From positions 1-43,160 of the IMG/VR virus record IMGVR_UViG_2534681759_000012: DNA of 43,160 nucleotides; one strand, written 5' to 3'. The DNA comes from a virus. Taxonomy: Duplodnaviria > Heunggongvirae > Uroviricota > Caudoviricetes. Shown here piece after piece: positions 1,153 through 2,892 of this stretch (position 1 is its first letter; every line of letters begins with the position of its first letter). A model generated the notes under the pieces. That model was given only the letters and a program-made list of their open reading frames with translations. It ran no database searches and was not told the DNA's origin. The translations under genes were made by a program, and so were the position numbers.

Positions 1153-1566
1153 AATAGCTAACACTTAAATGATAACTAATGGAACAGAACATTGTAATCT
1201 AATGATTATGTATACTGCATCCATCTTTTCCCGCCATGACAAGTTTTTGTTTATGGTATAAATTCTCTGCACAGAATCCTCTTATGTCAAAATCACTCTT
1301 AACACATTTGAGATAGACGTGCTAACTATCAATGACTATATTGAGTTGATTTCGTTAGCAAACGAATATTTTCAAGCTGGTTTTAACTTTGCATAAGAAA
1401 CTTTCTTATGTAACAATGTTGATTTGTCAAGGAAATAAAATGATATTAACATGAATGGCATAAATACAAAGTATGATGCAAATTGTAAGTTAGCCACATG
1501 CATTCGTGATTGCTGTATTAATAATTTCGTATGTTTATGTTTTTTTAAAACTATTCGGAAATAAAA
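1153..1566. promoter_or_regulatory. AT-rich intergenic region upstream of the cargo membrane gene (probable promoter region)
   Basis: 414 bp non-coding and strongly AT-rich between int stop and the 441-aa ORF; no convincing ORF (the 77-aa antisense ORF looks spurious). Promoter elements not mapped. Confidence 0.3.
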
Positions 1567-2892
1567 ATGAGCGATAGTGAATTTTTCAGTTTTATATTCA
1601 CACACTGGATTGGTTACATGCTATTAACCTTTCTTTGCGCGTTCTTATGCTACAAAGCAATAAGAAAAACAACCTATGGAATAATAGATCCAGCGCACTA
1701 CTTTTTCGCCTTCGGTTCTGGAACTGCATATTCAGTTGTCATAATTCTATATCTTTACGGGTACATAGACGATTACCTAGCCATAATGGTACTACTTAAC
1801 TTTATTATCCTTGTTATAACATGGAGATTTTCATTTAGTCTAAACATAAAGCCAATAGCTGGTCTTAGAAACGCTCTTTTCAGAGAGGTAGACAGCAACT
1901 ATAAATTTTCATTTAAGATTATTTTTGTTATGTATGTTGTATTAACAGCGTACTATTTATTAAATGTTTCATTCTCTTCGTTTGGTGAATCAAGGTTTGA
2001 GGCAAATAAAGGTCTTGGAGTAATTGTAAGAATACTAGATGTTGTGCGATTGTTATTGTCAGCTATGCTGGCTATAAATATATACAAAACAAAAAATAAG
2101 TTAAATAGAGCAATTATTATATTTTTTGCAATTTTAGTGGCTGTTATTGCGTCTTTTGTGTCAGGTGCTAAGTTCTCTCTTCTTGAACACGCGCTAGTAT
2201 CAATAGCGGCAATATATATATATTCAGGTGTGTCTCCAAGAATAAATTTAAAGTTCTTGGCAATCAGTCTCGTATCTTTTTCAGCCATGATTGCATATGT
2301 TCTTTATATTTTGACGTTTACATCTGAATCTATAGGTTATACCAGTTCTCAGTATACAGACTTGCCTGTTATATTTGAGCTATTCCTTATGAGAATAATT
2401 GCAAATGGAGATGCTTACTATTTTTCTCTGCCTTACGACACTATCAATAGAATAGTTGTCGAAAACCCTTTTATTCAGCTATTTGGATATATAGGTGGAA
2501 ATGGATTTGTAAAAACCGTGTTCTCATATAACTATTTTGATAATGATGTAGGTAGATTGATATGGAAACAATGGTACCCATGGGATGATATTGCAAGAGG
2601 TCCAACAAGTCACTTTGATCTTGCAGGATATGTGTTTTTTGGATTTATTGGAAGCTTAATTATGACGTCTATTATAGGTTTTATAATAGGAAGGATTTCA
2701 AAAGCAAAGTATAAAAACTCAGGTTGCATGCTTCCATTTACATCTTCGTTTTTGGCTGTTTTTTATATTAGATCTTTGCAGCTACTGTTATCGCCTCCTG
2801 TTGGCATTGCTTATGTTGTTGATATGTCTGTATTTTTAGTGGCATTCTCTTTTGTGTTGCTATGCCTTAGATTTGCGAGAACTCAAAGATAA
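1567..2892 (+). CDS. Polytopic inner-membrane protein, candidate O-antigen modification enzyme (Wzy-like polymerase or GtrC-like)
   Basis: 441-aa ORF with ~12 hydrophobic helices and a ~70-aa hydrophilic loop before the last three; GC far below its neighbours; sits between int and tailspike where P22-like phages carry serotype-conversion genes. Function is inferred from position and topology only. Confidence 0.5.
   Translation: MSDSEFFSFIFTHWIGYMLLTFLCAFLCYKAIRKTTYGIIDPAHYFFAFGSGTAYSVVIILYLYGYIDDYLAIMVLLNFIILVITWRFSFSLNIKPIAGLRNALFREVDSNYKFSFKIIFVMYVVLTAYYLLNVSFSSFGESRFEANKGLGVIVRILDVVRLLLSAMLAINIYKTKNKLNRAIIIFFAILVAVIASFVSGAKFSLLEHALVSIAAIYIYSGVSPRINLKFLAISLVSFSAMIAYVLYILTFTSESIGYTSSQYTDLPVIFELFLMRIIANGDAYYFSLPYDTINRIVVENPFIQLFGYIGGNGFVKTVFSYNYFDNDVGRLIWKQWYPWDDIARGPTSHFDLAGYVFFGFIGSLIMTSIIGFIIGRISKAKYKNSGCMLPFTSSFLAVFYIRSLQLLLSPPVGIAYVVDMSVFLVAFSFVLLCLRFARTQR

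What the first reader, a model, noticed from the sequence alone, without database searches (positions are those of the whole stretch)
1153..2892. AT-rich polytopic membrane cargo gene at the lysogenic-conversion locus
A 441-aa ~12-TM protein with very low GC and its own AT-rich upstream region sits between int and the tailspike, where P22-like phages carry O-antigen modifying genes. Unlike the gtrA-gtrB-gtrC arrangement no gtrA/gtrB are present, so a stand-alone enzyme (Wzy-like polymerase or other glycan modifier) is likely; this would alter the receptor the phage's own tailspike recognises.
Basis: partly seen in the sequence, partly recalled or inferred. Interest (0 to 1): 0.6.

Follow-up and report, generated by a model that had tools for sequence, protein, structure and literature searches.

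The report
Prophage-borne O-antigen polymerase (Wzy) gene
A P22-like E. coli prophage carries its own O-antigen polymerase gene next to its tailspike, and in the O114 and O5 strains that carry it or its sister variant the bacterium's own polymerase gene has repeatedly been knocked out, so the phage enzyme appears to have taken over building the cell's surface sugar coat.

Summary
ORF 1567..2892 (+, 441 aa, about 11 TM helices, GC 0.30-0.35 against 0.44-0.55 in the flanks) lies between int and a convergent P22-type tailspike, with a 414-bp spacer of 29% GC.

It is a Wzy-type repeat-unit polymerase:
- TIGR04370 is the only curated family hit, though below cutoff.
- Profile-profile match to the chromosomal O114 Wzy family is 97.9%.
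- A 37%-identical homologue sits in the wzy slot of an Enterobacter O-antigen cluster.

All homologues of at least 47% identity, in five genera, are phage-borne and tail-to-tail with a tailspike.

All four are O114, and all four have a frameshifted chromosomal wzy, from two independent events. The five other O114 genomes have it intact. A 48%-identical sister variant at the same site occurs only in O5 genomes (8 of 35), and 6 of those 8 have an inactivated O5 wzy, from three independent events. Only 1 of 27 non-carriers does.

No inhibitor peptide was found. O5ab and O5ac are known to differ only in the inter-repeat linkage, which this could explain. Whether the linkage changes is untested.

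It is a new member of a known kind (phage-encoded Wzy). Interest is moderate to high.

The parts
1..1152 (+). IntS-type tyrosine integrase; left boundary of the cargo module (argW-integrating prophage)
   Evidence: Pfam Phage_integrase 7e-39, Phage_int_M and Arm-DNA-bind_3. It sits next to tRNA-Arg (argW) in host genomes. DNA similarity to other IntS phages such as HK620 stops at the int stop codon.
1153..1566 (+). AT-rich spacer (29% GC) upstream of the polymerase gene; presumed to hold its promoter; weak GGA Shine-Dalgarno about 7 nt before the ATG
   Evidence: Composition. Promoter-like hexamers, e.g. TTGTCA-17-TAACAT at 1424-1452, are not above chance. No small ORF here is conserved in the homologous prophage loci.
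1567..2892 (+). wzy-like gene: 441-aa polytopic inner-membrane O-antigen repeat-unit polymerase. Predicted periplasmic loops at 134-150 and 257-349 carry family-invariant residues R143, R276, R330, H349 and D351; R155, D158 and K202 lie at the periplasmic ends of the adjacent helices
2902..2926 (.). 10-bp-stem hairpin in the 56-bp gap between the convergent polymerase and tailspike genes; likely a shared bidirectional terminator (A-run before, T-rich after)
   Evidence: MFE -15.7 kcal/mol, z = -4.2 against 200 shuffles, 0 shuffles as stable.
2949..4988 (-). 679-aa tailspike. Residues 1-113 form the P22 head-binding domain; the rest is a pectate-lyase-like receptor-binding domain that always co-occurs with the polymerase gene
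   Evidence: Pfam Head_binding 1.4e-64 and Pect-lyase_RHGA_epim. The receptor-binding region DNA is found in exactly the same 4 of 5,426 complete genomes as the polymerase gene. The same 679-aa partner is present in all 8 loci shown from 253 index blocks.

Best explanation
The ORF encodes a phage-borne Wzy. This is an inner-membrane enzyme that, on the periplasmic face, joins undecaprenyl-diphosphate-linked O-antigen repeat units into the O-polysaccharide chain. It travels as a two-gene module with the tailspike, which determines which O-antigen the phage adsorbs to. In the lysogen it polymerises the host's O114-type repeat units. It probably makes an inter-repeat linkage different from the native enzyme's, so the lysogen no longer displays the polymer that this tailspike binds or cleaves, which gives superinfection exclusion and serotype conversion. 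Unlike epsilon15 and D3, the module has no recognisable inhibitor of the host polymerase. Instead, the host's own wzy has repeatedly been lost by mutation in carrier lineages, leaving the prophage enzyme as the only polymerase.

Shown: identity as a Wzy-family protein; linkage to the tailspike; restriction to O114 hosts (sister variant: O5 hosts); recurrent inactivation of the chromosomal wzy in carriers.

Inferred: that the enzyme is active on O114 units; that its linkage differs from the native one; that this blocks adsorption; and the order of events (lysogeny first, host gene decay second).

For: Context: the 37%-identical Enterobacter homologue lies between wzx-GT2 and gnd in a canonical O-antigen cluster with no other wzy candidate. 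Every homologue of at least 47% identity (E. coli x2, Morganella, Xenorhabdus, Cedecea, E. asburiae) is in a prophage, convergent with a tailspike.

Host genetics, O114: all 4 complete genomes with this gene are O114 and all have the chromosomal 'O114 family O-antigen polymerase' frameshifted. There are two different events, +1T at nt ~408 and -1T at nt ~776, on different allele backgrounds. The 5 O114 non-carrier records are intact. Truncated forms also occur in independent draft assemblies, including one strain (2867750) named for both proteins.

Host genetics, O5: the sister variant is found only in O5 genomes (8 of 35). In 6 of those 8 the O5 wzy is inactivated by three independent events (nonsense at codon 151, -1G at nt 468, -1T at nt 560), against 1 of 27 non-carriers. 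Fisher p = 2.8e-7 combined.

Phenotype from the literature: 60 of 64 Bangladeshi LT/CS7 ETEC agglutinated with O114 antiserum and only 1 was rough (PMC4102457). The three sequenced Bangladeshi genomes of this type have the broken chromosomal wzy (E2980 is L3/CS7/O114, PMC8085198).

Precedents: epsilon15 carries wzy plus an inhibitor. Salmonella B1 arose by gaining a wzy outside the cluster and then losing the original (PMC3715488). Acinetobacter WzyPh1 changes the K-unit linkage (PMC9241936).
Against: No biochemical or structural data exist for this protein or for the O-antigen of a carrier compared with a non-carrier. The TIGR04370 score (33.2) is below the curated cutoff (40), and Pfam Wzy models do not hit this protein. 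Foldseek and sequence profiles find no solved relative. Three of the four O114 carriers are clonal, and both O114 frameshifts are in T7/T8 tracts, where sequencing error or phase variation is possible. Two O5 carriers keep an intact wzy. One O5 non-carrier (19SZHZ886Rt, with an empty argW site) has the nonsense allele, so the order of events is unresolved. Fifteen O5 non-carriers were classed as intact only because they share identical BLAST scores with verified genomes. A different linkage is an expectation from other systems, not a result here. Slide agglutination does not prove that long chains are made. The promoter is not demonstrated.
Confidence: 0.8

Rival explanations
1. Redundant polymerase. 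The prophage Wzy makes the same inter-repeat linkage as the native enzyme, so the host wzy simply decays neutrally once a second copy is present. There is no serotype conversion and no exclusion benefit.
For: Carrier strains are still typed O114 serologically (PMC4102457) and genomically. Host wzy loss fits relaxed selection, and the O114 events hit mutable poly-T tracts. Two O5 carriers still have an intact wzy.
Against: The two enzymes share only about 17% identity. The gene is strictly linked to a tailspike across five genera and two podovirus types, which is hard to explain without a receptor-related benefit to the phage. Five independent losses among about 7 carrier lineages against about 1 among non-carriers suggests selection rather than drift. 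O5 is already known to exist in two forms that differ only in the polymerisation linkage (PMC7496230, PMC9912281). All characterised phage Wzy enzymes change the linkage (PMC3715488, PMC9241936).
Confidence: 0.15
2. Rescue scenario. The host wzy mutations came first, for example selected by O-antigen-specific phages as in Kapi1-resistant mutants. The prophage polymerase was then acquired or retained because it restores O-antigen polymerisation. The molecular function is the same but the evolutionary order is reversed.
For: 19SZHZ886Rt has the O5 nonsense allele but no argW prophage. Spontaneous 1-bp wzy deletions are readily selected by a related argW podophage (PMC8787464).
Against: P22-like phages with O-antigen-specific tailspikes need polymerised O-antigen to infect. 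For Kapi1, wzy mutants are fully resistant (PMC8787464), so a wzy-null host should be hard to lysogenise. Two O5 carriers with an intact wzy look like the earlier stage. 19SZHZ886Rt can equally be a cured derivative.
Confidence: 0.2
3. A different GT-C-type enzyme rather than a polymerase: an O-antigen ligase (WaaL-like) or a periplasmic glycosyltransferase that adds a side-branch, like a GtrC that works without GtrA/B.
Against: TIGR04370 is the only family hit repeatedly. The family aligns over 364 columns with the O114 Wzy family. The Enterobacter homologue is the only wzy candidate in its cluster. A ligase or branch transferase would not make the host wzy dispensable. A side-branch glucosyltransferase would need Und-P-sugar supply genes, which are absent.
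Confidence: 0.04
4. Unrelated membrane protein (transporter, or a superinfection-exclusion membrane protein) that sits at the moron locus by chance.
For: No Pfam hit for this protein. PHROGs lists its family as 'unknown function'.
Confidence: 0.01

Closest known systems
Salmonella phage epsilon15 beta-polymerase (phage wzy) with its inhibitor of the host alpha-polymerase
   Same: A temperate podophage carries a wzy that re-polymerises the host's own O units with a new linkage, changing the receptor for the phage's tailspike (PMC3715488).
   Different: epsilon15 also encodes a protein inhibitor of the host Wzy and two small anti-acetylation proteins. No conserved small ORF accompanies the gene here, and the host wzy is inactivated by chromosomal mutation instead. 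Sequence similarity to the epsilon15 Wzy was not tested, but tblastn against 50,697 phage records, which should include epsilon15, found no match.
Pseudomonas aeruginosa phage D3 conversion module (iap + beta-polymerase + O-acetylase)
   Same: A phage-encoded O-antigen polymerase replaces the activity of the host Wzy (as summarised in PMC12373910 and PMC7685785).
   Different: D3 needs a three-gene cassette that includes the small Iap peptide. Here there is a single gene. The host is a different genus and the phage a different type.
Acinetobacter baumannii prophage WzyPh1 (K127 capsule)
   Same: A stand-alone prophage wzy overrides the locus-encoded Wzy and changes only the inter-unit linkage. 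Related wzy genes occur in unrelated phages, always in hosts with the matching polysaccharide locus (PMC9241936).
   Different: That system acts on capsule rather than O-antigen, and the abstract does not report pseudogenisation of the K-locus wzy. Here the gene is tightly paired with a tailspike, and the host wzy has been lost at least 5 times.
Salmonella group B1 wzy (rfc) outside the rfb cluster
   Same: [quoted passage not shown]
   Different: The Salmonella rfc locus is not in an identifiable active prophage, and the original gene was lost by deletion. Here the incoming gene is on a P22-like prophage, and the losses are point frameshifts and a nonsense mutation, caught at several stages.
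gtrABC / oac conversion genes of P22, Sf6, SfV and CPS-53 (intS-yfdGHI)
   Same: The same genomic slot, next to int and the tailspike, with the same low-GC 'moron' character and the presumed same purpose of modifying the O-antigen receptor.
   Different: Those add glucose or acetyl side groups to an already polymerised chain. This gene replaces the polymerisation step itself.
Chromosomal 'O114 family' and 'O5 family' O-antigen polymerases
   Same: Same superfamily (hhalign 97.9%), similar length (441 vs 443 and 438 aa), and the same presumed substrate, the Qui3N-Ribf-Gal-HexNAc unit.
   Different: About 17% identity with no BLAST-level similarity. One is located in a prophage and the other in the galF-gnd cluster.

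Membership tests
Wzy (O-antigen / oligosaccharide repeat-unit polymerase; NCBIfam TIGR04370 glyco_rpt_poly) | Scores above the curated cutoff of the family HMM | tested here: not met
   33.2 bits against a cutoff of 40, with E 2.8e-8 and alignment of residues 45-400 to 14-373/396. It is the only family hit. 43 of 89 relatives hit it at E<=1e-3, best 1.9e-15. This makes the protein a divergent relative rather than a member by the strict cutoff.
Wzy (O-antigen / oligosaccharide repeat-unit polymerase; NCBIfam TIGR04370 glyco_rpt_poly) | Homology to an accepted O-antigen polymerase family | tested here: met
   hhalign of the 89-sequence family profile against the chromosomal 'O114 family O-antigen polymerase' family gives probability 97.9%, E 4.2e-13, over 364 columns.
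Wzy (O-antigen / oligosaccharide repeat-unit polymerase; NCBIfam TIGR04370 glyco_rpt_poly) | Polytopic inner-membrane protein (about 10-14 TM) with a large periplasmic loop carrying conserved Arg and other charged residues | tested here: met
   The AF2 model has 11 TM helices and a 93-aa loop at 257-349. Family-invariant R143, R155, D158, K202, E271, R276, N280, R330, H349 and D351 fall in the predicted periplasmic loops or at the adjacent helix ends. The sidedness comes from the positive-inside rule only. Functionally essential Arg residues in periplasmic loops are documented for P. aeruginosa Wzy (PMC3854497).
Wzy (O-antigen / oligosaccharide repeat-unit polymerase; NCBIfam TIGR04370 glyco_rpt_poly) | Family members are encoded in Wzx/Wzy-dependent polysaccharide clusters next to wzx and glycosyltransferases | tested here: met
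   P0017 (37% identity) sits in rmlBDA-GT2-rmlC-fdtA-fdtB-wzx-GT2-[P0017]-orf-gnd-ugd-wzz of Enterobacter cloacae in three genomes. The window gene itself is outside any such cluster, in a prophage.
Wzy (O-antigen / oligosaccharide repeat-unit polymerase; NCBIfam TIGR04370 glyco_rpt_poly) | Shares the fold of the lipid-linked glycan polymerase/ligase class (SEDS FtsW/RodA, WaaL) | tested here: met
Wzy (O-antigen / oligosaccharide repeat-unit polymerase; NCBIfam TIGR04370 glyco_rpt_poly) | Polymerises Und-PP-linked repeat units (ladder restored in a wzy-null strain) | not testable with these tools
   The evidence is indirect. 10 of 12 carrier genomes lack a functional chromosomal wzy, and the CS7 ETEC lineage is still serotyped O114 and not rough (PMC4102457).
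Phage serotype-converting polymerase systems of the epsilon15/D3 type | A phage-encoded wzy in a temperate phage whose receptor is the O-antigen | tested here: met
   The prophage is P22-like (coat, gp7, gp16, injection translocase, Head_binding tailspike). The tailspike is of the O-antigen-binding type, but the receptor itself was not tested.
Phage serotype-converting polymerase systems of the epsilon15/D3 type | An accompanying small inhibitor of the host polymerase (Iap / epsilon15 inhibitor) | tested here: not met
   No conserved small ORF flanks the gene in the five contexts compared, and 56 bp with a terminator separate it from the tailspike. The rest of the 43-kb window was not searched exhaustively for such a peptide. 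A 47-aa single-TM ORF follows the Morganella homologue only.
Phage serotype-converting polymerase systems of the epsilon15/D3 type | The new inter-repeat linkage differs from the host's | not testable with these tools
   Circumstantial only: O5 exists as O5ab and O5ac, which differ just in this linkage (PMC7496230, PMC9912281), and the sister variant is confined to O5 genomes.
GtrC-type serotype-specific glucosyltransferase (gtrABC cassette) | Preceded by conserved gtrA (flippase) and gtrB (bactoprenol glucosyltransferase) | tested here: not met
   No such ORFs lie between int and the tailspike, and there is no GtrC-related HMM hit.
Acyltransferase-3 (Oac-type O-acetyltransferase) | Match to the Acyl_transf_3 profile | tested here: not met
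   No Pfam or NCBIfam hit to acyltransferase families at E<=1.

The most novel reading that the evidence does not exclude
The prophage enzyme makes a different inter-repeat linkage from the chromosomal Wzy. On this reading, the 'O114' antigen of the globally important CS7 ETEC lineage and one of the two long-known E. coli O5 subtypes (O5ab or O5ac, same tetrasaccharide with a different GalNAc-to-Qui3NAc junction) are phage-converted polymers made entirely by a prophage polymerase. The repeated knock-out of the host wzy would then be the host-genome equivalent of the Iap inhibitor of D3 and epsilon15, selected because mixed-linkage chains remain phage-sensitive. More broadly, a 'wzy + tailspike' cassette would be a mobile unit that moves between podovirus lineages in Enterobacterales and rewrites both what the phage attacks and what its lysogen displays.
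Probability: 0.45. Interest if true: 0.75.

Novelty: new member of a known kind. Interest (0 to 1): 0.6.

Why it matters
There are four reasons.

1. In-silico O-typing and O-antigen structure prediction for E. coli assume that the polymerase lies in the galF-gnd cluster. Here a prophage gene appears to do the job in a major ETEC lineage (L3, CS7, O114) and in part of serogroup O5. Typing by the cluster wzy therefore reports a pseudogene, and the real inter-unit linkage may differ from the reference structure. That matters for O-antigen vaccines, diagnostic sera and the choice of therapeutic phages.

2. It offers a concrete and cheap test for the unexplained genetic basis of the O5ab/O5ac difference.

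3. It documents, at several evolutionary stages (intact, frameshift, nonsense, possibly cured), how a bacterial core surface-biosynthesis step becomes dependent on a prophage. This is a form of prophage 'addiction' without a toxin.

4. It shows that phage-borne Wzy can act without a dedicated inhibitor, and that wzy and tailspike form a portable pair across two podovirus architectures and five genera.

Tried and rejected
- **Pfam scan of the protein:** no usable hit (DUF6234, E 0.47).
- **PHROGs:** the family is present but labelled unknown function.
- **Phage collection:** megablast and tblastn against 50,697 deposited phage genomes found no homologue of the gene, only int-end matches. It is therefore known only from prophages.
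- **Solved structures:** Foldseek against the PDB gave nothing (best E 1.1). A profile HMM against PDB sequences gave nothing. The afdb50 library was unavailable.
- **Iap-like inhibitor:** the small ORFs in 1153-1566, including a hydrophobic 23-aa GTG ORF at 1506..1577, are not conserved in the Morganella, Cedecea or metagenomic contexts. I rejected them as chance ORFs in AT-rich DNA.
- **Promoter scan:** not above the shuffled expectation.
- **Draft assemblies:** I tried to link truncated chromosomal Wzy fragments to prophage carriage by looking up the cluster members.
- **Related tailspikes:** I tested whether the two E. coli polymerase variants travel with related tailspike receptor-binding domains. 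They do not.
- **Cheap classification of O5 non-carriers:** identity to verified-intact alleles caught only 2 extra genomes, so I checked one representative per score group instead.
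Full report
**1.

The ORF at 1567..2892 (+) encodes 441 aa. GC falls to 0.29-0.35 between about 1200 and 3000, against 0.44-0.50 in int and 0.42-0.55 in the tail genes. The 414-bp int-ORF spacer is 29% GC. The left neighbour (1..1152) is an IntS-type tyrosine integrase. The right neighbour (2949..4988, convergent) is a 679-aa tailspike with the P22 head-binding domain and a pectate-lyase-like body. Coat, gp7, gp16 and injection-translocase genes confirm a P22-like prophage. There is no gtrA or gtrB. A strong hairpin (2902-2926, -15.7 kcal/mol, z -4.2) sits in the 56-bp gap between the two convergent genes. Promoter-like hexamers upstream are not more frequent than chance, so 'its own promoter' is plausible but unproven.

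**2. What the protein is**

Pfam gives nothing, and PHROGs knows the family only as 'unknown function'. NCBIfam gives one hit, TIGR04370 'oligosaccharide repeat unit polymerase'. It covers almost the full length at E 2.8e-8 but scores below the curated cutoff (33.2 against 40 bits).

- **Family size.** A word-indexed search found only 21 relatives, all in Enterobacterales. An exhaustive profile search found 477 representatives, nearly all about 440 aa.
- **Family-wide scan.** Of 89 diverse members, 43 hit TIGR04370 (best E 1.9e-15). No other family recurs.
- **Profile-profile comparison.** The family profile against the bona fide chromosomal 'O114 family O-antigen polymerase' family gives 97.9% probability (E 4e-13, 364 columns). 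Invariant R143, K202 and R276 align with the other family's invariant R165, K226 and R284.
- **Structure.** The AlphaFold model (pLDDT 81.8, pTM 0.86) shows 11 TM helices and a 93-residue loop at 257-349. By the positive-inside rule this loop is periplasmic, as is the loop at 134-150. The family-invariant charged residues R143, R155, D158, K202, E271, R276, N280, R330, H349 and D351 lie in or next to these loops.

**3. Context of relatives**

The 36-38%-identical clade is chromosomal. In three Enterobacter cloacae-complex genomes it occupies the wzy position of a canonical cluster: rmlBDA, GT2, rmlC, fdtA, fdtB, wzx, GT2, this gene, an orf, gnd, ugd, wzz.

Every relative of at least 47% identity is in a prophage and lies tail-to-tail with a tailspike gene:
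- Morganella and Xenorhabdus, in P22-like phages with Head_binding tailspikes.
- Cedecea and Enterobacter asburiae, in a different temperate podovirus with a T7-type terminase/nozzle and an 827-aa tailspike-like protein.
- A second E. coli variant at the same argW/intS site.

The exact window protein occurs in 253 index blocks of E. coli assemblies. In all 8 loci shown it has the same 679-aa tailspike, while the rest of the phage backbone is mosaic. No deposited phage genome among 50,697 encodes a homologue. The likely history is capture of a low-GC wzy from an O-antigen cluster, followed by spread as a wzy + tailspike pair.

**4. The host side, which is the main new result**

*O114.* The gene and the tailspike receptor-binding region occur in the same 4 of 5,426 complete E. 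coli genomes. All four belong to the 9 genomes that carry the O114 cluster. In all four, PGAP flags the chromosomal O114 wzy as frameshifted. In the five non-carrier records it is intact.

Alignment shows two different lesions:
- +1T in a T7 run at nt ~408, in the three Bangladeshi ETEC genomes 90-9280, ETEC-2264 and E2980.

Protein fragments matching the +1T allele occur on 19 contigs of other assemblies. A -1T fragment on yet another allele background occurs in other ETEC draft assemblies. One draft strain (2867750) is named for both the truncated chromosomal protein and the prophage protein.

The two polymerases share no BLAST-level similarity.

*O5.* The sister variant (48% identical, same locus) gives an independent replicate. 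It is present in 8 complete genomes, and all 8 are among the 35 O5 genomes. The O5 cluster is organised like the O114 cluster.

The O5 wzy is inactivated in 6 of the 8 carriers, by three independent lesions that are not in long homopolymers:
- T452A nonsense at codon 151: TUM9754, S163-2, DETEC-P61.
- -1G at nt 468: FDAARGOS_1248.
- -1T at nt 560: ZF34 and ZF31.

Among the 27 non-carriers:
- Nine were read directly and are intact.
- Two are 100% identical to intact alleles.
- Fifteen share identical scores in three searches with verified genomes.
- One (19SZHZ886Rt) carries the codon-151 nonsense allele and has an empty argW site.

*Totals.* 10 of 12 carriers against 1 of 32 non-carriers have an inactivated wzy (Fisher p = 2.8e-7, ignoring relatedness). 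These reflect at least five independent events.

**5. Phenotypic anchor from the literature**

In Bangladesh in 2007-2012, 60 of 64 LT/CS7 ETEC agglutinated with monovalent O114 antiserum and only one was rough (PMC4102457). E2980 is the L3/CS7/O114 reference strain (PMC8085198). So the lineage with the dead chromosomal wzy still displays O114-reactive antigen. This fits the prophage enzyme polymerising O114 units, although agglutination alone does not prove that long chains are made.

For a related argW podophage (Kapi1), wzy frameshift mutants are fully resistant (PMC8787464). That argues that lysogeny preceded the loss of the host wzy.

**6. Mechanism proposed**

*Shown:* the protein is a Wzy-family member, is linked to the tailspike, is restricted to one O-unit type per variant, and the host wzy is dispensable in carriers.

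*Inferred:* the phage enzyme polymerises the host's Und-PP-linked Qui3N-Ribf-Gal-HexNAc units in the periplasm with a linkage different from the native one. The lysogen then no longer presents the polymer recognised by this tailspike. Because no inhibitor is encoded, both enzymes initially compete, and mutation of the host wzy completes the conversion.

E. coli O5ab and O5ac are reported to share the same tetrasaccharide joined by different linkages (PMC7496230). In O5ac the junction is GalNAc(alpha1-2)Qui3NAc (PMC9912281). From my own recollection, not checked here, the O5ab junction is 1-4. I found no published genetic explanation in the searchable library. The 2019 E. coli O-antigen review mentions a second wzy outside the cluster only as a hypothesis for O118/O151 (PMC7685785).

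**7. Comparison with what is known**

Phage-encoded Wzy is an established concept:
- epsilon15 carries wzy plus an inhibitor (PMC3715488).
- D3 carries iap, a polymerase and an acetylase (PMC12373910).
- Acinetobacter WzyPh1 is a stand-alone prophage wzy that changes the K-unit linkage (PMC9241936).
- Salmonella group B1 shows 'gain of an outside wzy, then loss of the original' (PMC3715488).

The present gene is a new member of that kind. It is not categorically new, and PGAP already names it 'O-antigen polymerase'. What appears unreported is:
- this family and its pairing with tailspikes in P22-like and other podoviruses;
- its confinement to O114 and O5;
- the recurrent, multi-stage pseudogenisation of the host wzy;
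- the possible link to O5ab/O5ac.

**8. Caveats**

- There is no wet-lab evidence.
- The family HMM score is sub-threshold.
- Three O114 carriers are clonal, and the O114 lesions are in poly-T tracts.
- Carriage was scored by megablast for two variants only, so 'non-carriers' could hold a more divergent phage wzy.
- Fifteen O5 non-carriers were classified by inference.
- The order of events is unresolved because of 19SZHZ886Rt.
- The copy in this window carries an IS21-family insertion (20469-22270), so this particular prophage may not be inducible.

Noticed in passing
window 20469..22270 (+): An IS21-family insertion sequence (340-aa IstA with rve integrase core and HTH domains; 260-aa IstB ATPase, Pfam IstB_IS21 7.7e-112) sits on the opposite strand between the terminase genes and the lysis region. 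This copy of the prophage may be disabled. The PADLOC 'DrmD' hit of the IstB protein looks like a generic IstB-like ATPase match, not a DISARM system.
   Followed up: partly
window 41913..43160 (-): A LacY-family sugar permease (E 1e-193), like the csc sucrose-utilisation permease that flanks argW prophages in other E. coli (compare L029). The window therefore runs past the right end of the prophage into host DNA. The attR position was not mapped.
   Followed up: partly
window 28848..31328 (-): An 826-aa DnaB-type replicative helicase whose N- and C-terminal helicase domains are separated by about 450 residues containing a weak LAGLIDADG_3 match (aa 439-485). This is probably an intein or homing-endonuclease insertion.
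   Followed up: no
L004 9143..9286 (Morganella morganii prophage): A 47-aa ORF with one hydrophobic helix (…AVVLLLLCSSVVLLILAGIKMLI…) immediately follows the Morganella wzy homologue, before the tailspike. It is a candidate Iap-like inhibitor of the host polymerase and is absent from the E. coli module.
   Followed up: no
L029 5564..10106 (E. coli, P0007-type variant): In some O5 genomes the argW prophage is largely degraded, yet int, the polymerase gene and a 574-aa tailspike-like gene are retained next to the csc genes. This suggests the host selects for keeping the polymerase after the phage has decayed.
   Followed up: partly
NZ_CP080080.1 (19SZHZ886Rt) 1753049..1754365 and L048 25025..25099: This O5 strain has the same codon-151 nonsense wzy as three carriers but an empty argW site, and the GT2 gene downstream of wzy is not annotated. 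It is either a cured, probably semi-rough, derivative or the pre-lysogeny state of that lineage.
   Followed up: partly
L009 10245..11577 and protein P0193: A further truncated chromosomal O114 Wzy form (361 aa, starting at Met83) exists in two draft genomes (OKW41074.1, OKW53752.1). It may be a fourth independent lesion or only a start-codon call. Its prophage status is unknown.
   Followed up: no
window 2949..4640 (-), tailspike receptor-binding region: The closest receptor-binding domains in deposited phages are only about 53% identical. They occur in unrelated lytic phages: Salmonella SS3/SS9-type myoviruses, FSL SP-076-like phages and Escherichia PE007. This indicates horizontal exchange of this depolymerase domain across phage families. 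Their O-antigen specificities could hint at the receptor.
   Followed up: no
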